NCBI GenBank assembly: GCA_020348925.1
Contig: CP070758.1
Coordinates: 4,897,775 to 4,961,774 of the forward strand
Direction: 5' to 3'
Source of the DNA: Gemmatimonadota bacterium
Lineage (GTDB): Bacteria; JBHIER01; G020348925
DNA: 64,000 nt
Shown here: positions 25,280 through 57,044 of the stretch, in pieces
Layout: every line of letters begins with the position of its first letter
Position numbering within the stretch: position 1 is the stretch's first letter
Program-made: the position numbers and the translations under genes
The notes under the pieces: model-generated
The model's database searches: none
The model's input: only the letters and a program-made list of their open reading frames with translations
What the model was told of the DNA's origin: nothing

Positions 25280-25481
25280 TTTACACCTCCTCTCAAACAC
25301 TCAGTCCTTTCTCTTTCAATGAAACAGTGCTCAACGCATCAAAACCATTCTTTTGGTTTCTGACCATGTCCCATGGTCGACNNNNNNNNNNNNNNNNNNN
25401 NNNNNNNNNNNNNNNNNNNNNNNNNNNNNNNNNNNNNNNNNNNNNNNNNNNNNNNNNNNNNNNNNNNNNNNNNNNNNNNNN

Positions 25482-26196
25482 ACTGATGCGCGGGATTCTG
25501 TTCAGTGCTCGATTCATCATCACCGAAACTCCAGTCCCACGACGTGATGTCGCCTGTGGACTGGTCCGTAAACTCGACGGTGAGTGGAGCGCAACCAGTG
25601 GTGGGCTCGCCGCTGAAATCGGCAAGGGGGGTGTCTGGAAGAGGAGCGGACACGGCTGTTGCAGTATAAACGTAATCTCCTGATGTCGAGCCGTTGTCAT
25701 TGGCCGCATTGCCCGACGCGTAGAAAGTGACTTCTCCAACAGCGGGTGAGGGTGCAGTCCAGTCAAAGGTCCAGGAGACGGGTCCGTCGTTTGTACCGGC
25801 GAAGGTGCCGGCCGACCTCTGTTTGATGTAATCGGGATTGGAGCCCGAATTGTCTGAGAGCTGGGTATTCGTGCCGTCCGTCACACTCATCGTACCTGCC
25901 TGGTCGTTATCATCATCAATCGTCGTCAACTCAAAACCCCAGCGGCTCTGTCCGGGATCGGAAAGTGTCACGGTTATTGTGTATGTGTCGCCCGGCGTGT
26001 AGATATCCGGCACATTGTCTATGGACAGCATGCCGTCCCCGGAGTTCAGGGCAAAAGAGTCGTGGCATTGCGTGCAGGTCATTCCCGAGGGTGGGTCGCC
26101 GGCCCGGCCGTTCGGCGGATTACTGGAGTAAGCCCATATCAGAGCAGCGAAAACAACGATGATGATAATTTCAATAGGGAAACGTCGTTTTAACAT
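25482..26196 (-). CDS. Secreted reeler/choice-of-anchor V plus PKD domain protein (partial, gap)
   Basis: Signal peptide; CTQCH, WGFELT, WTFDWTAP; PKD-like ADFSG.P..G.APLTV.FTDQS..WDWSFGD. Confidence 0.8.
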
Positions 26197-26470
26197 TGTA
26201 CCCTCCTTTCCCAATATAAGTGTCGCATGGATTACGCCAAACTCCCTGACAAAAGTTGACCGGGAAGGTAGAATGTTTCAATAATATTCTATAAGATCTC
26301 AATCAATTTGTCAAGTATTTTTTTACGGCGGAAAATGTCGGTGTATCGTTTTGTAAAATAATCTTCTCAGGAAAAATACATCATTCGGTTGAATCCTGTC
26401 TCCGGTGTCGTTTGCTTTCCTTCGGCTCCGCGATGCAAAAAGGTACGAAAACCCTCAGTAATTTCCCCTG

Positions 26471-26513
26471 AAAGTACACCAGGGGGTGCGTGAGCCCTTT
26501 GACATAAGTCAAA
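26471..26513 (-). promoter_or_regulatory. Second FNR/HcpR-like box with class II promoter
   Basis: TTTGAC-ATAA-GTCAAA at 26498-26513; -10 TACTTT at 26476-26471 again gives -41.5. Confidence 0.6.
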
Positions 26514-26560
26514 AGTAGGTTCTTTTTTGGATTTTTCGTATTTTTTGGTGTCCCTCATAC

Positions 26561-27158
26561 CCCTCGTTCCCTAACACTGTTTGGGAACGTAAATGTTTAA
26601 AGAAACTCCGTTTCCCTGCCAAGTCTCCATTTTCAACCGCCATTACTGCTGAACAATAACGTCGCTGTCATTTTGACCCCTGACACCCGAGCTTAATTCG
26701 GCATTCGGTGCTGCTTTGTGGAGAAATCTGGCTGCTGTTTTATTGAACAGGTTTTCATTTTCTTTGGTTGCCCAAAGAAAACGAAGCAAAAGAAAGTGCA
26801 GCCTGGTAAACCCTCGCCGAAACCGTCAACGGCTCGCTGCGTTGTTTTTTCCAAACTCGTTCCCGATTCTCGGGGACTCAGACAGCGGAAAAAACGGCCA
26901 CTGCGCTCGCCTGTCGGTCCAGCGGCTCACGTTTCAGGGTAATTTTTCTCCACTCCAAAATTTCCTTCATCCAGAGCGGAGAAATCTGACTTGTGCACTA
27001 AAGAAATTCGTTGATTTGGCTATCCTCACATTCTCCGCCTGTCATTCCCGCAATTTAGTAGCGGGAACTCAATTTTCATATAAGACTTACCTCATTAAAA
27101 CCTCTCCCAAGCAATAAATAAATCTTGACAATGTTTTGAAAACATTGTACTTTAGAGA
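26561..27158 (+). repeat. Array leader copy 1 (GTTCCC hairpin, structured element 26754-26940, sigma70 promoter)
   Basis: Aligns by eye with 28174-28740; TTGACA(27125)-17-TACTTT. Confidence 0.85.
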
Positions 27159-27251
27159 AAAGGATATAGCTAAATGGGGAGAAAAATGATAGATAGAGAC
27201 TTGGATTTTAAAAGTGTTCGTACTATTGAGAATTGAAGGAGGCGATACGTT

Positions 27252-27443
27252 GTGGAAAAGAAAAAATTTGTTTACTTTCAAGAAGAAGAGATGTGGATTG
27301 GTTGGCTTGAGGATTTTCCGGACTATAGAACCCAAGGGCAGACTTTGGAAGAGCTCAAGGAGAATCTGAAGGATATCTACGACGAACTAACAAGTGGGAG
27401 CATTCCATGTGTGCGTCGTGTTGGGGAGCTCGTGTTTGAATGA
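27252..27443 (+). CDS. HicB-like antitoxin
   Basis: WIGWLEDFPDYRTQGQTLEELKENLKDIY. Confidence 0.8.
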   Translation: MEKKKFVYFQEEEMWIGWLEDFPDYRTQGQTLEELKENLKDIYDELTSGSIPCVRRVGELVFE

Positions 27444-27520
27444 AGCGAAGGGAGCTTATCAAGCAACGTGAGTAAATAGGTAAGAAGGGCAAATATTGAT
27501 AAATCACGGTTCATGATCTG
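27440..27520 (+). pseudogene. Degraded HicA-like toxin
   Basis: ATGA-coupled MKRRELIKQ followed by stops. Confidence 0.45.
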
Positions 27521-27595
27521 ACCTCGTAACTTTAACATCACTGCATCTATGGTACGATCGGTATCCTGCCATGTTACCTGGGAGAATTGAGGTAA

Positions 27596-27820
27596 GTGCC
27601 AGACCATCCGAACAAGCATATACGAAACGTGATCGGTTATGCAGAGGAAAAAGGTTGGGCCGTAACAAAGGCTGGGGCCAGAGCACATATTTGGGGTGTG
27701 CTCTGGTGTCCGGAACGAAGCGGGGAAGGCTGTCGGATCAGGATTATGTCTACTCCGCGGAATCCGGAGAATCATGCTCGTGATATCCGACGAGATATTG
27801 ACCGATGTCCCCATTCCTGA
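27596..27820 (+). CDS. HicA-like putative toxin
   Basis: RBS GAGG; HPNKHI...AEEKGW...HIWG.LWCP..C...STPRNP.NHA. Confidence 0.6.
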   Translation: MPDHPNKHIRNVIGYAEEKGWAVTKAGARAHIWGVLWCPERSGEGCRIRIMSTPRNPENHARDIRRDIDRCPHS

Positions 27821-27878
27821 TGGTTCAATGACCACAAGTCTATAGAAATGGAGTGAGCAATTGATAAAGGGAGGAGTC

Positions 27879-28124
27879 ATGAAAGAACACGAATTCACCC
27901 TGATTCTGTCGGAAGATCCAAACGAAGAAGAAGCCGATAGGCTCTATGGTGTTTTTAATGACGGCACGCTTTCTACTATTGCCGGCGTTCCACAAATCCG
28001 TTTTCACCGGCAGGCTCCGTCACTGGAGGAAGCCATTCGTAGTGCCCTCAGAGACGTAAAAGCCGCAGGATTTGAAATTACTCATGTCGAAATAGAGCCT
28101 CAGACTATGATGCAGCCTGCTTAG
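27879..28124 (+). CDS. HicB-like putative antitoxin
   Basis: HEFTL...F.RQAPSLEEAIRSA..DV; directly follows the putative toxin. Confidence 0.6.
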   Translation: MKEHEFTLILSEDPNEEEADRLYGVFNDGTLSTIAGVPQIRFHRQAPSLEEAIRSALRDVKAAGFEITHVEIEPQTMMQPA

Positions 28125-28173
28125 TAGCGGAAAAAGGTGTCTGGGATCTTTTTCTCCTGTCATTTCCTCTCTC

Positions 28174-28740
28174 CCCTCGTTCCCAAACTCTGTTTGGGAA
28201 CGCAATTGACATGGGAAACTTTGTTTCCCTTAATGCTCACTTCTTCCAATTGTCATTTCACCATACACTAAAAACCCTTGAGGATGTTGTAGGAAACTCT
28301 GTTTCCTCTTACCTGTTTCTCATTCTCTCTTCATTTTCTTTGTTTGCCCAAAGAAAAAGAAGCAAAAGAAAATGCAACCCGATAAACGCTCGCCGGGACC
28401 GACAACGGCTCGCTGCGTTGTTTTTTCCAAACTCGTCCCCCGTTAAGGCGGGGGACTCAGACAACGGAAAAAACAGCCACTGCGCTCGTCGGACGGTCTA
28501 ACGGCTCACGTTTCAGGGCAGTTTTTTTCCACTCCAAAGCTTCCTTCATCCAGAGTGGAGAAATCTGATCTGTACCTCAGACAGAATCCTCAATGCAGCA
28601 ATCCTTTCAATCTCCGTCTTTCATTCCCGCAGTTTGGTAGCGGTTATCCAATTTTCTCCTGAATCTTACCTCATTTAAAAACCTCTCCCAATCAATAAGA
28701 AAAATCTTGACAATGTTTTGAAAGTATTGTACTTTAGAGA
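28174..28740 (+). repeat. Array leader copy 2 (structured element 28330-28519, promoter)
   Basis: Same module order as copy 1; TTGACA(28707)-17-TACTTT. Confidence 0.85.
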
Positions 28741-28803
28741 GCAGGAAATAACCAAACATGGGTTCATGAGAGTCAGTTGAGCGTCAAGAAAAGGAGACGT
28801 ACA

Positions 28804-29025
28804 ATGCGTTTTAGCGATATTCCTGAGATTGCCAAGTTAAGTACGCCGGAAAAGATCCTATTGATTGAGGATCTATGGGATAGCATCGCTTTGGATGAAT
28901 CCAGTGTACCTGTGCCTGAGAGTCATAGGGATGAATTGGACAATAGATTAAAGAGCTATCAGGCGAATCCTGGAAATCTACTCTCTCTTGAAGAGCTTCA
29001 GGAAAGGATTGAGAGAAGGAAGTGA
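28804..29025 (+). CDS. Addiction-module antitoxin
   Basis: LS..EK..L.EDLWDSI...H..EL..RL. Confidence 0.85.
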   Translation: MRFSDIPEIAKLSTPEKILLIEDLWDSIALDESSVPVPESHRDELDNRLKSYQANPGNLLSLEELQERIERRK

Positions 29026-29345
29026 AATATACACTGTGTTTCCTTCCTGAAGTGGAAGAGGATGTTATTGCCGGATATGCATGGTACGAAGTGAAGGCGT
29101 CAGGGCTCGATGAGGATTTCCTTCGAATGTTTTATGCTTGTGTGGGGGAGATTTCAAGGAATCCATTGCTGTACCCAAAAGTCTATCGAGAATTCCGACG
29201 CTGTTTGCTTAGACGGTTTCCGTACGCTATTTACTTTAAGATTGAGGACAAGGAGATTATTATTTTTGGGCTCTTTCATTGCGCACGCGATCCCCGTATT
29301 ATTCGAGAAAAACTGCGCGGTCGCGATGGAAGCGAGAACCTCTAA
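29022..29345 (+). CDS. RelE/ParE-family toxin
   Basis: AWYE...GL..DF...I..NPLLYP...RRCLL.RFPY.IYF...HCAR.P. Confidence 0.85.
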   Translation: MKYTLCFLPEVEEDVIAGYAWYEVKASGLDEDFLRMFYACVGEISRNPLLYPKVYREFRRCLLRRFPYAIYFKIEDKEIIIFGLFHCARDPRIIREKLRGRDGSENL

Positions 29346-30193
29346 CAGACTTGATGAAAAGTAAATTTAACGCAACCCGAATTTTGGCATCAGAAACTTA
29401 GAATTCTTGGATAAATCAGAAGAAGAGGAACGAGTCGGTGTTATAGTATTTGTCTTTTCTCCCGTCCAAAACCATTTGGGAACGTANNNNNNNNNNNNNN
29501 NNNNNNNNNNNNNNNNNNNNNNNNNNNNNNNNNNNNNNNNNNNNNNNNNNNNNNNNNNNNNNNNNNNNNNNNNNNNNNNNNNNNNNGTCTCACGTACCGT
29601 AACAGTTACCAAGTGATAATGGTGTTTCCCAGCAGCGAGATACCGGTGGAAGACCAATGGCTTTCTTTGAAACGAATTTGCCGATCGAGATTCTTCGGTT
29701 TTCCTTTATGCTACCAGTTGAGCTTTGACTACCACACCGGCAAACAAAGTGCTCAACAGCGAACCTGAATTGTTCGTAAAGAATACGGAGTGTGTTCTTC
29801 CGGCAATCTGCGAGCTGTTGCCAGACAGCTTTTTCAACTCCTCTTCGTGCCGCTTTGAAAGACACTGTGTGCCATTTCGATTCCCGGAACAGGCTTCCGT
29901 GAGAAATCTGTTTGAAGCACCGCTTTCACAGTAGCGATGCTTTCTCAGAAGAGCGTTTCATGAATGAATCAGGCTGAGATTGAAATTCATGAAATAGTAC
30001 TGGCGTGGGCTCACGCGGGGATTGCGCAAGATTTTTCAAGGCCTCTACTTTTCACTCTTCCTACCGTCTGTGAGACTCAAAAAAACCGGAAAACCTGAAT
30101 CTTTCTCTGCTTCCGTTCAGTTTTCCCTTGAAGAAAAGTCGGAAAAACAATATATTGTCCTTCGGTGAAAGGAGTCGGATCTAAGGACAAAAC

Positions 30194-52363: not shown

Positions 52364-52542
52364 GCAGGGGGGGTGGGGCTTTCATCAGAAGCTTTCTTAG
52401 AGATGGGTTTTCTGGGTTAAAAAATGTCGTTCAAGGCATTAAATACTGTGATTTCTGTAGTTTTTCTATTGAACACCAACAGGTTAACCTGGTCCGACCC
52501 GGGAACCTACAAATGGAGAGGGATTGAAAGATAGGATGTGTC

Positions 52543-52589
52543 CTCTTCGACGTGAGAAGATCAAAGATCATAGATGTGACCCCCTCATG
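52543..52589 (+). repeat. 47-bp direct repeat, copy 1
   Basis: CTCTTCGACGTGAGAAGATCAAAGATCATAGATGTGACCCCCTCATG; 42/47 identical to 53669-53715. Confidence 0.9.
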
Positions 52590-52594
52590 GATGC

Positions 52595-53605
52595 TCACCT
52601 TTGAAAGAATTCAATCACTTTTGAAACGAACAGATCCGGTTCATCAATGAACATCATGTGATTGCTTTTTTGAAGTATGAAGTATTCCTTTTGCCCTCCA
52701 TAATTTTTGTAACCTTTTTCCAAAGTACTGAAGGGAACTAATATATCTTTTGCGCCGGCTATTAACAACATGGGGACATCAATAGTATTAACCCTGTTCT
52801 CGAGATCGAGCGTCTTCAGCTCATCGTACATTGCCTTAACGACAACCATTGATTTATTCTCCCATCCCGGATCGATACTATCAATCTCGGTTATCGTAAT
52901 AACCTTGGACATTTGAAGATTCTTTCCTAAACCCTCATTCATTTTATCCAGAATTTCCATACCAATCCGCCGCCATGCCATTCCTTCCTGTAACGTCTCG
53001 TAAGGCGGAGGACCAAGATCTTCGAGTTTTTTTGCGGCTTCCTGATTTCCAGTCTTTTTCGACAGCTCCAGGACCGTCTGATAACCGCTATTTTCCACAG
53101 AACTTACAGAAAACGCACCGGCTGCGGAAACAAATTTCTCTATATTGTCTTGATGCTCCAATAAGTATAAATAGCCGAGGCCTCCTCCAAACGAATGCCC
53201 GAGTAAAGATATTTTATCTTTCTTGAACTTATCTTTAAGGAATTCGACAGTGTTTCCAACATCCTCTACGTATTTGCTGAGTATGAGAGTCTCGATTGGC
53301 GCATCGGGAGACATACATGTGCTTCTTTGATGCAGATACCCTACAACGAAATGTTTTTCAAGTTCCGGTCCTGCATATGCTTGAAAGAGCAAAGGGCCGT
53401 ATGTCTCACCCGGGCCTCCATGAAGATAAAGCAATACCGGATTATTGATATCCTGTCCCCGTACTTTGATGTACAATTGAGCTTCATCCGATTGAATGTA
53501 GAATTCTTGATCAATTCGCTCACCTGCCCCCACCGCATTTAAAGTGTATGAAATAACAATTGCCGCTGATAAAGCCAACTTCAGGATTACTTTTTTCTTC
53601 CTCAT
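52595..53605 (-). CDS. Secreted alpha/beta hydrolase (proline iminopeptidase-like)
   Basis: Signal peptide; HGGPG, GHSFGG, G..D, S.H. Confidence 0.88.
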   Translation of the reverse strand: MRKKKVILKLALSAAIVISYTLNAVGAGERIDQEFYIQSDEAQLYIKVRGQDINNPVLLYLHGGPGETYGPLLFQAYAGPELEKHFVVGYLHQRSTCMSPDAPIETLILSKYVEDVGNTVEFLKDKFKKDKISLLGHSFGGGLGYLYLLEHQDNIEKFVSAAGAFSVSSVENSGYQTVLELSKKTGNQEAAKKLEDLGPPPYETLQEGMAWRRIGMEILDKMNEGLGKNLQMSKVITITEIDSIDPGWENKSMVVVKAMYDELKTLDLENRVNTIDVPMLLIAGAKDILVPFSTLEKGYKNYGGQKEYFILQKSNHMMFIDEPDLFVSKVIEFFQR

Positions 53606-53668
53606 TTCTCTCTCCAATTCTTATTGGGCGGACCCTGGTAGAAGCTATTCAACTTTCAAACTCTTAGA

Positions 53669-53715
53669 CTCTTCGACGTGAGATGATCGAAGATCAAAGA
53701 TTTGACCCTCTCATG
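53669..53715 (+). repeat. 47-bp direct repeat, copy 2
   Basis: CTCTTCGACGTGAGATGATCGAAGATCAAAGATTTGACCCTCTCATG. Confidence 0.9.
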
Positions 53716-53799
53716 ACTGAAACAGTTTCACCAACTATTCAGCCAGTCCATGTGGAGAGAGAATTCAATCTCGGCATCACCGTCCCTCTTTTCCGCGGC

Positions 53800-54134
53800 A
53801 AGAGGTTAGAAACCTGAGGTCATAAAATGTGACCGGTCCCAGAAAACACCTTGTCCCACTAAACCTTCCCTATGCCTTTACCGAGCACGGCGCCCTTATG
53901 GCGGCAAATGTCCTTGGAAGCGAACGTGCGGCTCAGATGAGTGTTTTTGTGGTTCGTGCCTTTGCTCGCTTGAGACACATCCTTGCCTCGCATGTTGATC
54001 TGGCAAAGAAACTCGACGAATTGGAAAAGAAATACGATGTTCAGTTCAGAGTTGTCTTTGATGCCATACGCCAGCTCATGAAGCAACCGGAACCGCCAAA
54101 ACGAGAAATCGGTTTTCGATCAAAAGAAGAGATC
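53800..54134 (+). pseudogene. ORF6N-domain DNA-binding protein remnant
   Basis: NLRS*NVT, then PYAFTEHGALMAANVL.S.RA...VVRAF...IGF; runs into the repeat. Confidence 0.75.
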
Positions 54135-54312
54135 TTCTTTTTCTTTGCTGGCCAAAGAAAAAGAAGTAAAAAGAAAGGACAGCCCAATAATCATTCGCCG
54201 GGACCGTCAGCGGCTCGCTTCGCTGTTTTTTCCAAACTCGCCCGTCGGGCTCAGACACGGAAAAAACACCCACTTTGCTCCCGGACGGTCCACGGGCTCA
54301 CGTTTCAGGGCG
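54135..54312 (+). repeat. Structured element copy 3
   Basis: Colinear with 26754-26940 and 28330-28519. Confidence 0.85.
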
Positions 54313-54886
54313 CTTCTTTTCAGCTTTTTAGCTTTTAAAATTAAAGATGCAATCCCAATTACCAAAAACAACTTCCACGGAGACTTGACCCCTTACTACA
54401 CTTAAAGTCTCCCCTATGAAGGGGAGATTTAGAGGAGTGTTTACATTATTTCACTTCCGCTGACCTCTCCCTTTCCCAAAGAGCCCGCCTTGAGCTTACC
54501 GAAAGAGAGATGGAGAGGGATTGAAAAATAGGATATGCCCCTATTTTCGACTTTTCAANNNNNNNNNNNNNNNNNNNNNNNNNNNNNNNNNNNNNNNNNN
54601 NNNNNNNNNNNNNNNNNNNNNNNNNNNNNNNNNNNNNNNNNNNNNNNNNNNNNNNNNNACCATTTTTTCGGCCCAAAGAGTGTCGAATAAGATTCTTATG
54701 TTTGGACTTGTGATATGGGGGCTTGTGACAAATTCAAGTTCAATATAAGGCTTAACTCATTTACTGTCAAGTGTTTTTTTAAAGTATGGTTGAAAATCAA
54801 ATTACTCTAAATAATAACTTGACATAATGAACTCTTTTCTTTATCCTAATGATGACACAATTGATGCTACAAATAAGGAGGTCTTT

Positions 54887-55813: not shown

Positions 55814-55879
55814 CGCCCTGAAACTTGAGCCGTTGGATCGTTCGGTGAGCGAAGCATGGGTTTTTCCGACTGTCTGAGT
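55814..55879 (-). repeat. Structured element copy 4 (right half, inverted)
   Basis: Reverse complement ACTCAGACAGTCGGAAAAAC...CGGCTCAAGTTTCAGGGCG. Confidence 0.8.
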
Positions 55880-57044
55880 CCTCAAGTGATGTGGGGTCAG
55901 GCATCAGAAAATAGATTTTCCTCGATTCTTTCCACAAGCCGCTTAATTTTTCTATCTTGACCAATCTTCTCTTTAACTTTGCTTGCAATATAACTGATAT
56001 TAGTCCCACATATCCCCCCGAATACCCTACCGAGGGAAACATTCGTCTCATCACAATACTTATGCGCCAGGTATATCGCTATCTCTCGAGCCTCAGTTCC
56101 ATGACGGCCCCGTTGACATATCGATACTTCTGATACATTTAAAGCTCTACCCACCTTTCGATTTATGTCTCTCATAGATGTGTTATGAATATACTTATGG
56201 TTAGTTACAGCATGAGCTCCTATTCCTCTTTTCTGAAGCAACTTCAGCACCCAATCTGCAAATTCTTCACTTCCCAAAGCGATCCCGGCGACTGCACCCT
56301 TCATAGGATTAACCAGCTTCCTCTCAATCCCCTCTTCAACAAACCTGCGATACTCCGATTCCGCTATTCTTCTATATCCTCCGTACTGCGCAAGGAGCCA
56401 GTCTGTTTCAAGCCAGATTCTTCTTCCTCTCATACCGATGTAATCTCTATAGCTGCTCCAGACATATTCTTCAGGACTTTTCACCAGACCACCTCGAACC
56501 GGATTGAGATGAATGTAGCGACTCAATTCAAGTAGATGACTTTCCTTTTCCAACAAAATGGCTTTGAATCGCCCCTGAAAAAGATGTCCGCTTCTGTTGT
56601 AACGTCTATTATAATTGAAGGCATATGTCGTCTTGATCCACTGCATTGCTCTGGATATATTCCCAAATGGAGTTTCAACTTCAAGATGATAATGGTTCGG
56701 CATCAGGCAAAAAGCATGGATTCTCAGCCTGAATCTTTCAACAGCTTCCTTGAAATACCCAAGAAGTCGCTTTCGATCTTTATCATCTTGAAAAATTTCC
56801 TTTCGATTATTTCCTCTGTCTGTGATATGATAGAGCACATCTGGCAAATTGATTCTAACAGATCTGGCCATGGATATCTTTCCATGATTGAAAGCAATTG
56901 AGATACGAAACGATTACTAAAAGCATCTGTAAATTACAGAAGGAGTGGAGGGATGTCAATACCCTAATCGAAAAAATTCTATAACTCGTTGTGCCATTTC
57001 ACCCAAAATCTATTATCTGATGCCTGACCCCTAATTACTTGAGG
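55880..57044. mobile_element. Y1/HUH transposase element with terminal inverted repeats
   Basis: GGGGTCAGGCATCAGAAAATAGATTTT (55893-55919) matches the reverse complement of 57005-57031 at 26/27; outer CCTCAAGT also matches. Confidence 0.82.
55897..56871 (-). CDS. REP-associated-type Y1 tyrosine transposase with C-terminal DnaA-C-like HTH
   Basis: YHIT.RGN, CLMPNHYHL (HUH), GHLFQGRF, RYIHLNPVR, WSSY. Confidence 0.9.
   Translation of the reverse strand: MARSVRINLPDVLYHITDRGNNRKEIFQDDKDRKRLLGYFKEAVERFRLRIHAFCLMPNHYHLEVETPFGNISRAMQWIKTTYAFNYNRRYNRSGHLFQGRFKAILLEKESHLLELSRYIHLNPVRGGLVKSPEEYVWSSYRDYIGMRGRRIWLETDWLLAQYGGYRRIAESEYRRFVEEGIERKLVNPMKGAVAGIALGSEEFADWVLKLLQKRGIGAHAVTNHKYIHNTSMRDINRKVGRALNVSEVSICQRGRHGTEAREIAIYLAHKYCDETNVSLGRVFGGICGTNISYIASKVKEKIGQDRKIKRLVERIEENLFSDA

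What the first reader, a model, noticed from the sequence alone, without database searches (positions are those of the whole stretch)
26561..29486. Toxin-antitoxin array in which each unit carries the same ~600-bp structured, promoter-bearing leader
Seen: units start at 26561 and 28174, and a third appears to start at 29461 at the contig break. The first two contain, in order, a CGTTCCC..GGGAACG hairpin, a ~190-bp nested-palindrome element, a TCATTCCCGC REP-like hairpin and TTGACA-17-TACTTT. Similarity stops just after the -10 and is followed by unrelated cargo: hicB with a hicA relic and a HicA/HicB-like pair in unit 1, an addiction module with ParE/RelE in unit 2. No attC or integrase is visible here. 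Inference: an integron-independent cassette array in which a mobile non-coding leader supplies the promoter and perhaps the recombination site.
Basis: partly seen in the sequence, partly recalled or inferred. Interest (0 to 1): 0.8.

Follow-up and report, generated by a model that had tools for sequence, protein, structure and literature searches.

The report
Mosaic repeat leaders before toxin-antitoxin genes
Two toxin-antitoxin operons share an upstream region that is a patchwork of separate genome repeats, and the largest piece belongs to a folded non-coding element, apparently undescribed, that occurs in many bacterial phyla.

Summary
The repeated units are real, but they are not one 600-bp leader. 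They are a mosaic of at least four independent repeat families on a 4,005-nt piece of a MAG joined by N-runs.

Genome-wide BLAST gives 7 hits for the CGTTCCC hairpin module and 37 for the 186-nt nested palindrome. The promoter segment has 2 copies by that search, and two more diverged copies appeared later.

The 186-nt element sits beside ordinary genes, with no toxin-antitoxin enrichment. No integron integrase was found.

The promoter module does precede unrelated small operons. A metagenome contig carries the same leader between different cargo, and one contig from another sample joins unit 2 to unit 1. So cargo varies around a shared leader, but a cassette mechanism is not shown.

Unexpectedly, the first 50 nt of the 186-nt element is conserved across many phyla (more than 117 loci). 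It shows hairpin, loop-pseudoknot and mirror-repeat covariation that fits a triple-helix cap. Nothing matched in Rfam or in my paper searches. This scan held no earlier look-alike.

The parts
25482..29486 (.). The 4,005-nt assembly piece that holds the whole finding, bounded by 100-N joins
26553..26617 (+). hp1 module copy 1: CGTTCCC..GGGAACG hairpin (26565-26589) plus GAAAC..GTTTC hairpin (26602-26614)
   Evidence: D6, 77% to copy 2; 7 hits genome-wide
26618..26753 (+). Spacer specific to unit 1, single copy in this genome. A similar stretch lies in another position on metagenome contig L047.
26754..26940 (+). 186-nt structured dispersed repeat, copy 1: module A at 26754-26803, long imperfect hairpin B at 26804-26940
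26941..26990 (+). 'Post' hairpin. Its 3' arm, an 11-nt word, also occurs at 26719-26729, so the word flanks the 186-nt element on both sides.
   Evidence: read from the sequence
27040..27067 (+). TGTC-tagged REP-like hairpin (TTCCCGC..GCGGGAA)
27125..27153 (+). Promoter-like module 1: TTGACA, 17 nt, TACTTT. The spacer holds a 21-bp near-perfect palindrome.
   Evidence: not listed
27252..27443 (+). 63-aa ORF, weakly UPF0150/HicB-like
27440..27475 (+).
   Evidence: read from the sequence
27596..27820 (+). 74-aa ORF with no family hit; nearest Atlas clusters are named HicA toxin
27861..28124 (+). 87-aa ORF (likely start ATG at 27879), no family assigned
28166..28230 (+). hp1 module copy 2
28231..28329 (+). 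Spacer specific to unit 2, with a second GGAAAC..GTTTCC hairpin. A variant lacking 28213-28292 is present in runs X1 and X2.
28330..28518 (+). 186-nt structured dispersed repeat, copy 2 (86% identical to copy 1)
28707..28735 (+). Promoter-like module 2
   Evidence: D7, 87%
28804..29025 (+). Antitoxin, Unstab_antitox / TIGR02574. The ORF is listed from TTG at 28777; ATG at 28804 follows an AAGGAG motif.
29022..29345 (+). ParE-family toxin, 107 aa
29461..29486 (+). hp1 copy 3, degenerate and cut by the end of the piece. In run X3 it continues into 26580-26687.
54135..54311 (+). Third copy of the 186-nt repeat in the window, directly behind a truncated ORF6N-like ORF
55816..55881 (-). Fragment (positions 121-186) of the 186-nt repeat, abutting the RAYT unit
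   Evidence: (I1)
55880..57044 (-). REP-associated tyrosine transposase gene (55897-56871) between 40-nt inverted repeats. It is not the partner of the 186-nt repeat.
   Evidence: (I2)

Best explanation
The locus is a small islet of toxin-antitoxin-type operons. Its intergenic 'leaders' are mosaics of separate repeat families that have inserted next to, and recombined with, each other. The families are a double-hairpin module (hp1), a 186-nt highly structured dispersed repeat, TGTC-tagged REP-like hairpins, and a promoter plus 5'-UTR module.

Only the promoter module is tied to small accessory operons, and it most likely drives their transcription (inferred). The 186-nt repeat is a passenger with no link to toxin-antitoxin genes.

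That repeat is a non-autonomous, REP/MITE-like structured element. It has a 50-nt cap (module A) followed by a long imperfect hairpin of about 140 nt. Module A consists of:
- a pyrimidine arm;
- a loop;
- a purine arm;
- a second purine tract that mirrors the first;
- 5-6 nt that pair with the loop.

I infer that one strand folds into a hairpin whose groove holds the mirror tract as a third strand, ending in a loop pseudoknot. On the reverse strand this reads as a canonical U.A-U / C+.G-C triplex. The folded single strand, as ssDNA during mobilisation or as RNA at gene 3' ends, would be the active form.

Shown: the repeat families, their copy numbers, their flanks and the covariation. Inferred: the triplex, the mode of spread and the promoter activity.
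For: Mosaic structure. The segments have unequal copy numbers and the units carry different spacers. The hp1, second hairpin and 186-nt repeat also occur together at genome position ~1.0257 Mb. On contig L047 the same modules appear in a different order, and the unit-1 spacer there runs on without the 186-nt repeat.

The 186-nt repeat. It has 37 BLAST hits, 23 of them full length with sharp ends. Its folding energy is -46 to -83 kcal/mol. In the RNAalifold consensus 15 of 41 pairs show compensatory change. Its flanks are ordinary genes. Among relatives it was found in 2 of 41 genomes, counting this one.

Module A across phyla:
- The pattern read backwards gave 0 matches in 5 plus 301 genomes.
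- A covariance model built from this genome's copies gave 117 matches at E<=0.01 in the 100 of the 117 loci that were searched.
- The loop pairs with the next 14 nt over 5 or more Watson-Crick pairs in 47 of 94 distinct copies, against 5.7% of 8,486 mismatched controls.
- The variable arm pair T/A goes with a 5-A mirror tract in 12 of 12 distinct sequences. Where the purine-arm base is not A the tract has 4 A in 77 of 79. That fits a mirror (parallel) relation, not an antiparallel one.

Strand. The reverse strand of hairpin B folds more stably in 55 of 70 distinct hairpins (p 4e-5) and in 21 of 23 copies in this genome.

Position. Of 189 flanking genes, 126 have their 3' end facing the element, equally on both sides (63 and 63).

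Partner gene. No recurrent neighbouring gene was found; no cluster of flanking proteins had more than 2 members.

Promoter module. It occurs at 4 loci of this genome and on L047.
Against: - The promoter is only a consensus match. The -10 fits 3 of 6 positions, one search does not list it, and no RNA run was available.
- One contig from X3 (depth 2.5) joins 29474 to 26580 exactly at hp1 with 12 shared letters. That is what a site-specific cassette junction, a circle or a tandem array would give.
- The leader is conserved at 88% in a relative while its cargo differs, which also suits a cassette model.
- For the 186-nt repeat I found no terminal inverted repeats of the whole element, no target-site duplication, no conserved target and no empty site, so mobility is not shown.
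- Copies are kept at the same place beside mnmE in two Undibacterium species. One complete chromosome has a single exact match. Both would suit a functional RNA or DNA site as well.
- G.U counts favour the reverse strand only slightly across phyla (288 against 256). In this genome the composition is skewed, with G+T at 0.457 on the + strand.
- My first count on the RNAalifold pairs gave G.U 25 against A.C 21, which shows no bias (hand count).
- The triplex rests on sequence covariation among related copies. 8 of the 12 T/A cases come from this one genome.
Confidence: 0.62

Rival explanations
1. This is a true integron-independent cassette system. Each unit (hp1, leader, cargo) is a mobile cassette that is excised and inserted by site-specific recombination at the hp1 hairpin, and the leader supplies the promoter.
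For: The junction 29474->26580 falls in hp1 with 12 shared letters in run X3. Three hp1 copies delimit the units. L047 has the same leader with different cargo on both sides. The promoter module stands before four different small operons.
Against: No recombinase lies on the piece or is linked to it, and there is no integron integrase. The two RAYT genes have their own, different REPs. hp1 has only 7 BLAST hits, and they are not tied to toxin-antitoxin genes as far as I looked. The modules occur in different orders and combinations, which suggests recombination at any shared repeat and not at one site. The X3 evidence is a single 259-nt contig at depth 2.5 from a strain that differs by 13 letters in 209.
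Confidence: 0.15
2. This is an old local tandem duplication of one promoter region, including a resident copy of the 186-nt repeat, followed by replacement or decay of the downstream genes. There is no mobility or function beyond that.
For: The 420-nt shared block (26754-27175 against 28330-28756) is contiguous and 79-90% identical. The two 186-nt copies are about as close to each other (86.2%) as either is to any other copy, the best being 86.6%.
Against: The same promoter and part of the leader occur at two distant loci of this genome and in a relative. The spacers between hp1 and the repeat differ completely. Similarity ends within about 25 nt (unit 1 against unit 2), or about 75 nt (unit 1 against the third locus and L047), of the -10, rather than decaying gradually.
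Confidence: 0.15
3. The 186-nt element is mainly an RNA-level device and not mobile DNA. Transcribed on the reverse strand, it forms a long hairpin followed by a U.A-U triple-helix pseudoknot that ends or protects transcripts, as a terminator or 3'-end stabiliser. It is kept for that reason at gene 3' ends.
For: Of 189 flanking genes, 126 point their 3' end at the element. The reverse strand is the more stable one. The order of parts on the reverse strand (U-rich, U-rich, loop, A-rich) is that of known RNA triple helices (read from the sequence; covariation). A copy is kept at an orthologous site in Undibacterium. A U-rich tract follows hairpin B on the reverse strand.
Against: There is no orientation preference relative to flanking genes (63 against 63). 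The distribution is patchy (3 of 301 sampled genomes, 2 of them this genome and its relative). Loops are near-identical within a genome and differ between genomes, which points to recent bursts of copying. No RNA data were available (one search listed no RNA holder).
Confidence: 0.3

Closest known systems
REP / BIME / REPIN elements with RAYT transposases
   Same: Multi-copy, intergenic, hairpin-forming repeats, mostly at gene 3' ends, that form mosaics with other repeats. The genome has two RAYT genes flanked by their own REPs. The small hairpins of the leader (hp1, TGTC-tagged) are of this kind.
   Different: The 186-nt element is far longer than a REP. It has a sequence-conserved cap shared across phyla and does not flank either RAYT gene.
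MITEs and long palindromic repeats (Correia, ERIC, BOX; recalled from knowledge and the listing)
   Same: Non-coding, 100-250 nt, many copies, long imperfect hairpin, modular build, subfamilies with extra flanks.
   Different: No inverted repeats at the ends of the whole element, no target-site duplication seen, no related transposase-bearing parent. A 50-nt core kept across phyla is not usual for MITEs.
Chromosomal integron cassette arrays rich in toxin-antitoxin cassettes
   Same: Same-strand small operons, some toxin-antitoxin, separated by structured repeats. Cargo differs between relatives.
   Different: No IntI. The spacers are 600-700 nt mosaics with a promoter, not 60-140-nt attC sites, and I saw no GTTRRRY-type boxes when reading the hairpins.
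RNA triple helices: ENE / MALAT1-type 3'-end elements and H-type pseudoknots with major-groove triples (SAM-II, preQ1-II, telomerase)
   Same: On the reverse strand the order is U-rich third strand, U-rich Watson-Crick strand, loop, A-rich strand. One C+.G-C interrupts the U.A-U run, and a helix forms between the loop and the flanking bases.
   Different: It is known in riboswitches, group II introns and eukaryotic or viral RNAs. The passages I read in a 2026 review (PMC13541005) name no bacterial dispersed repeat. The triplex here is inferred from sequence only.
Type II toxin-antitoxin operons (ParDE-like, HicAB)
   Same: Unit 2 is an Unstab_antitox plus ParE pair with overlapping genes. Unit 1 has HicB-like and HicA-like leads.
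   Different: Unit 1 assignments fall below the family cut-offs, and one hicA is a stub.

Membership tests
Integron cassette array | Integron integrase (IntI) in the genome or next to the array | tested here: not met
   TIGR02249 best 91.4 bits against a cut-off of 265, in a genome 96.3% complete
Integron cassette array | attC site of 55-140 nt with R''/R' boxes after each cassette | tested here: inconclusive
   No such boxes seen on reading hp1 and the palindrome. No attC model was available to run.
MITE | Terminal inverted repeats at both ends of the element | tested here: not met
   The ends of the 23 aligned full copies are not complementary; only hairpin B is internally palindromic
MITE | Target-site duplication or conserved target | tested here: not met
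   The flanks of the 23 full copies show no shared target or duplication (by eye). The 11-nt word on both sides of copy 1 is seen at that copy only.
MITE | A related autonomous element with a transposase | tested here: not met
   No recurrent neighbouring ORF among 189 flanks of 117 loci; none beside the copies in this genome
REP / REPIN with RAYT | Repeats flank the RAYT gene in inverted orientation | tested here: not met
   Both RAYT genes are flanked by other repeats of 29 and 40 nt. This row concerns the 186-nt element.
IS200/IS605-derived palindromic element (PATE) | Y1 transposase in the host genome | tested here: met
   Y1_Tnp is present in this genome and in 5 of 5 other carriers tested, against 6 of 14 control genomes. 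This is a weak association, and no Y1_Tnp gene lies near a module A copy.
IS200/IS605-derived palindromic element (PATE) | Fixed 4-5-nt target at the left flank; TnpB or omega-RNA relation | tested here: not met
   No conserved flank. No TnpB: PF07282 gave 0 matches.
Type II toxin-antitoxin pair | Two small adjacent or overlapping genes with toxin and antitoxin family hits | tested here: met
   Unit 2: PF09720 at 58.6 bits and PF05016 at 23.9 bits (cut-off 23). Unit 1 has only leads below cut-off.
Any Rfam family | Match at the gathering score | tested here: not met
   Whole window, 10 loci of other phyla, and three permissive scans of the element itself: none at the element
RNA major-groove triple helix (ENE-like or H-type pseudoknot) | Third strand parallel to the purine strand, with U.A-U / C+.G-C register | tested here: inconclusive
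   The mirror symmetry and its length covariation fit. No structural or probing data exist.
RNA major-groove triple helix (ENE-like or H-type pseudoknot) | The element is transcribed and the triplex stabilises or regulates the RNA | not testable with these tools
   No RNA run holds the stretch

The most novel reading that the evidence does not exclude
Module A marks an undescribed class of structured elements found across phyla. A 50-nt triple-helix pseudoknot cap, conserved from Bacteroidota and Cloacimonadota to Desulfobacterota, Burkholderiales, Neisseriaceae and Firmicutes, is joined to a lineage-specific long hairpin and copied 1 to more than 20 times per genome. If the reverse-strand RNA forms the U.A-U triplex, this would be the first ENE/MALAT1-like protective triple helix carried by a dispersed bacterial repeat. 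If the ssDNA form is the active one, it would be a new kind of folded transposition or recombination signal.
Probability: 0.35. Interest if true: 0.8.

Novelty: new variant of a known kind. Interest (0 to 1): 0.55.

Why it matters
For the finding as written, the lesson is cautionary. A striking shared 'leader' turns out to be a pile-up of unrelated repeats on a short, repeat-bounded MAG contig, and the abundant part has nothing to do with toxin-antitoxin genes.

Two points remain of interest.
- One promoter and 5'-UTR module is reused before several unrelated small operons, and its cargo differs between relatives. This is a testable case of promoter sharing among accessory genes.

A natural triple-helix cap on a bacterial repeat would bear on how such repeats are copied, or on how they end and protect transcripts. 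It could be probed directly in cultured carriers.

Tried and rejected
- Integron: no IntI.
- TnpB / omega-RNA origin: no TnpB in the genome.
- RAYT as cis partner: both RAYT genes have other REPs.
- Coding reading of the element: 2-nt indels between copies rule out a conserved frame.
- ORF starting at the module A boundary on the opposite strand: only short, non-conserved frames. The recurring peptide-like string is the translation of a hairpin.
- Partner gene in cis across phyla: none.
- Replication-strand bias: too few copies per contig, and orientations are mixed.
- Hammerhead-like core in the apical loop: does not fit, by eye.
- The apical pattern of hairpin B from this genome: 0 matches in genome contigs.
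- Module A in 2.9 million viral contigs: 0 matches.
- Paper searches: sequence strings gave 0 papers; triple helix plus repeats in bacteria gave 2 unrelated papers; Chunjie and MITE gave listings only, none read.
- Earlier notes of this scan, searched by sequence: nothing.
- RNA evidence: no RNA holder was listed for the stretch.
- Parts of the stretch without contig cover in runs X1-X4 are not interpreted.
The count of four genomic promoter copies therefore comes from BLAST only and may be too low.
- Supplements of papers were not consulted.


Full report
**Setting**

The window is part of a 5.04-Mb MAG laid out as one record of 206 pieces joined by 100-N runs. The finding sits on a 4,005-nt piece, window 25482-29486. 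What lies beyond the N-runs at 25382-25481 and 29487-29586 is not known to be adjacent. Earlier notes of this scan describe the genome as a T9SS-bearing FCB-lineage organism. Among the genomes held it has one same-family relative; the other 39 of the 40 first sampled were labelled 'same domain' only.

**Checking the observation**

The sequence and an alignment of the three starts, with the repeat finder, confirm two units with the same order of parts and a third, degenerate first hairpin at 29461-29486. The shared stretches are:
- 26553-26617 against 28166-28230 (77%);
- 26754-26864 against 28330-28440 (90%);
- 26872-27100 against 28451-28679 (79%);
- 27120-27174 against 28702-28756 (87%).

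The stretch 26626-26753 of unit 1 has no counterpart in unit 2 or anywhere else in the genome. TTGACA, 17 nt, TACTTT is present in both units. The consensus scan does not list it, because the second hexamer matches 3 of 6.

Cargo:
- Unit 2 is a clear Unstab_antitox/TIGR02574 plus ParE pair.
- In unit 1 the first ORF is only weakly UPF0150-like (18.4 bits, cut-off 27.3).
- It is followed by an 11-codon stub.
- Next comes a 74-aa ORF without family hits, whose nearest ESM Atlas clusters are named HicA (0.94, a lead only).
- Last is an 87-aa ORF of unknown family.

**The leader is a mosaic**

I cut unit 1 into six segments and searched each against the whole genome.

| Segment | BLAST hits in the genome |
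|---|---|
| hp1 | 7 |
| spacer | 1 |
| 186-nt palindrome | 37 |
| 'post' segment | 2 |
| third hairpin | 3 |
| promoter | 3 |

The genome search gave 34 matches for the palindrome region. Of the 37 palindrome hits, 23 are full length, with sharp common ends and unrelated flanks, apart from subfamilies that share 20-150 nt more.

Later comparisons found two diverged extra copies of the promoter segment:
- One is at genome 2639095-2639202, behind a degenerate palindrome, with no intact gene after it.
- One is near 2732100, with no palindrome upstream. It is followed by three overlapping small genes: a 95-aa ORF without a family, DUF7718 and DUF5647.

The arrangement of hp1, a second hairpin and the palindrome recurs at genome position ~1.0257 Mb. 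So the parts travel separately and in several combinations.

**No toxin-antitoxin link for the abundant part**

Around 33 copies of the palindrome (4 of the 37 lay outside my stored loci) I scanned 85 flanking ORFs. They matched 69 Pfam families of ordinary kinds (MTHFR, Peptidase_M3, ThiF, ATP-synt_DE_N, ADH and others). ORF6N occurred twice, and no toxin-antitoxin family was among the 25 families listed. By reading, toxin-antitoxin-like genes lie beside about 4 of the 37 copies, three of them in this window.

No integron integrase is present. The genome has no TnpB. It has two RAYT-type Y1 transposases, one of them in the window at 55897-56871. Each is flanked by its own 29- or 40-nt REPs, not by the palindrome.

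**What speaks for varying cargo around a shared leader**

A scan of JGI metagenome contigs for the promoter pattern found one 1,673-nt contig, L047. It carries hp1, the unit-2 spacer and the palindrome at 88% identity. After these come a second hp1 with a stretch like the unit-1 spacer, then the remainder of the leader with the promoter. The genes before it (a partial ORF and a DUF4926 gene) and the sequence after it are absent from this genome.

In L047 the stretch like the unit-1 spacer runs straight into the 'post' segment. It does so at an 11-nt word that, in unit 1, stands on both sides of the palindrome. The palindrome plus about 75 nt is therefore either an insertion in unit 1 or a deletion in L047.

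I laid Logan contigs of four sediment runs on the piece.
- One 259-nt contig of a second study (X3, depth 2.5, 13 differing letters in 209) joins 29474 to 26580 through hp1. That places the tail of unit 2 before the head of unit 1.
- Runs X1 and X2 hold a variant without 28213-28292.
- These results fit recombination between repeats, a different unit order, a tandem array or a circle. They do not tell these apart.

**The 186-nt element**

Each copy folds into a 13-14-bp hairpin rich in T on one arm and A on the other, then a purine linker, then a long imperfect hairpin of about 140 nt. Folding energy is -46 to -83 kcal/mol. RNAalifold finds 41 consensus pairs, 15 of them with compensatory changes.

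No Rfam family matches, either in the whole window or in permissive scans of the element.

Among 40 other genomes sampled, only the one same-family relative has a match. That match is a partial copy holding the first 50 nt only, which abuts a truncated ABC ATPase reading frame.

**A cap conserved across phyla**

A pattern for the apical part of the long hairpin found nothing in 185,579 species genomes. The hits include both isolates and MAGs:
- Bacteroidota: Marinoscillum luteum, Maribacter, Flavobacteriaceae, Chitinophagales
- Cloacimonadales, Neomarinimicrobiota and Nitrospinota
- many Desulfobacterota, Geobacteraceae and Thermodesulfobacteriota MAGs
- Burkholderiales: Undibacterium, Polaromonas, Delftia, Acidovorax
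- Neisseriaceae: Eikenella, Kingella
- Gallibacterium
- Firmicutes and Clostridia MAGs

The same pattern read backwards gave 0 matches in 5 and in 301 genomes. In a sample of 301 genomes, 3 had a match, two of them this genome and its relative. It gave 0 matches in viral contigs. The element is therefore rare, patchy and chromosomal.

Exact-pattern copies per genome were 20, 15, 5, 3 and 1 in five carriers, and 13 here. Loops are nearly uniform within a genome and differ between genomes.

A covariance model built from this genome's copies found 117 matches at E<=0.01 in the 100 of the 117 loci that I searched. About 15 of them span the full length.

After module A there is a long hairpin in 70 of 90 parsed copies, with median length 153.5 nt. 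Its sequence is lineage-specific. By eye there are two recurring apical types.

No Rfam family lies on these elements.

**Covariation in the cap**

- The loop of the first hairpin pairs with the bases just after the purine linker. There are 5 or more contiguous Watson-Crick pairs in 47 of 94 distinct copies, and in 22 of 45 distinct loops. The figure is 5.7% for 8,486 mismatched loop and flank combinations (an earlier, narrower count is).
- The one variable pair of the hairpin arms covaries: T/A, C/G, A/T and G/C occur. The commonest state, however, is an A/C mismatch, in 45 of 93 distinct sequences.
- The purine linker is a mirror image of the purine arm. Where the variable pair is T/A the A-run of the linker has 5 A (12 of 12). 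Where the purine-arm base is not A it has 4 A (77 of 79; Fisher p 2e-11). Copies are kin, so this overstates the case: 8 of the 12 are from this genome and 4 are from other genomes, among them two Firmicutes/Clostridia MAGs (L048, L161).

The run lengthens on the opposite side of the G in arm and linker. That is what a mirror (parallel) relation predicts, and what antiparallel pairing or a direct repeat does not. The simplest reading is a third strand lying along the hairpin and ending at the loop, where the next bases form the pseudoknot.

On the strand as I oriented it, this would be a purine-motif (R.R-Y) triplex, which is known mainly for DNA. On the reverse strand it is the canonical U.A-U / C+.G-C arrangement of RNA triple helices. 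Both statements rest on established knowledge, not on a test here.

The reverse strand of the long hairpin is the more stable one in 55 of 70 distinct hairpins (Wilcoxon p 4e-5) and in 21 of 23 copies in this genome. G.U counts differ little across phyla (288 against 256), and this genome's composition is skewed. My hand count on the RNAalifold pairs showed no bias (25 against 21). The strand call is therefore a hint only.

**Context across phyla**

Of 189 flanking ORFs of 100 aa or more at the 117 loci, 126 point their 3' end at the element, 63 on each side. No family recurs among them; the largest cluster has 2 members. No ORF starts at the element boundary.

Y1 transposases are present in this genome and in 5 of 5 other carriers tested, against 6 of 14 control genomes. 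No Y1_Tnp gene lies near a module A copy listed. This is a weak lead towards mobilisation as a folded single strand.

**Literature**

- Sequence strings of the cap gave no paper.
- Two keyword searches gave nothing relevant. I saw listings and abstracts only.
- In a 2026 review of RNA triple helices (PMC13541005) I read the passages that hold 'bacteria', 'prokaryot' or 'transposable'. They name riboswitches and group II introns in bacteria, and ENE-like elements in eukaryotic viruses, lncRNAs and plant and fungal transposons. They name no bacterial dispersed repeat.
- Supplements were not consulted.

**Verdict**

The cassette-array reading is partly supported, in that the promoter module is shared and the cargo varies. 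Its core claim, one mobile leader with a recombination site that is enriched at toxin-antitoxin genes, is not supported.

The most interesting result lies outside the original claim. The palindrome's cap is a motif conserved across phyla with triple-strand covariation, and I could not find it described.

**Limits**

- No RNA data were available.
- I found no empty sites for the 186-nt element.
- The covariation counts include related copies.

Noticed in passing
window 55880-57044 (- strand): RAYT gene (NF047646 at 87.5 bits, cut-off 80; Y1_Tnp plus a DnaA_C-like HTH) between 40-nt inverted repeats. It is inserted against a truncated copy of the 186-nt repeat. A second RAYT, at genome 1247004-1247330, lies between 2 and 3 copies of a 29-nt REP, which is a textbook REPtron.
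   Followed up: partly
window 52513-54540: An alpha/beta-hydrolase-like ORF (52595-53617, - strand) is bracketed by direct repeats: 47 nt at 52543 and 53669, and 31 nt at 52513 and 54510. The 47-nt repeat resembles the REP of the second RAYT.
   Followed up: no
   Followed up: no
window 27131-27147; L047 1282-1302: The promoter spacer holds a 21-bp palindrome, perfect in L047 and near-perfect in unit 1 (one central base). It looks like an operator shared by operons with unrelated cargo.
   Followed up: no
genome 1046225-1047741 (L040, L015); genome 34300-36250; window 53829-54311: ORF6N-domain genes lie next to, and in the same orientation as, copies of the 186-nt repeat at three loci. One gene lies between two direct copies, and it follows a truncated copy and a TTGACA-17-TATATT promoter-like site.
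   Followed up: partly
L036 1500-1560 (relative G001): The only copy in the same-family genome is module A alone, joined directly to an ABC-ATPase reading frame that lacks its first ~15-20 codons.
   Followed up: no
genome 2731000-2732100 (L167, - strand): A fourth copy of the promoter module drives three overlapping small genes (95 aa with no family, DUF7718, DUF5647). This may be an uncharacterised toxin-antitoxin-like module.
   Followed up: partly
L057 and L079 (two Undibacterium species): The element lies at the same distance (165 nt) from mnmE in both species, so some copies persist at orthologous sites.
   Followed up: no
runs X3 and X4 on window 26754-26803: Short contigs holding only module A have depth 58-77, against 2-4 for neighbouring parts. 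Module A is therefore abundant in other organisms of those sediments.
   Followed up: no
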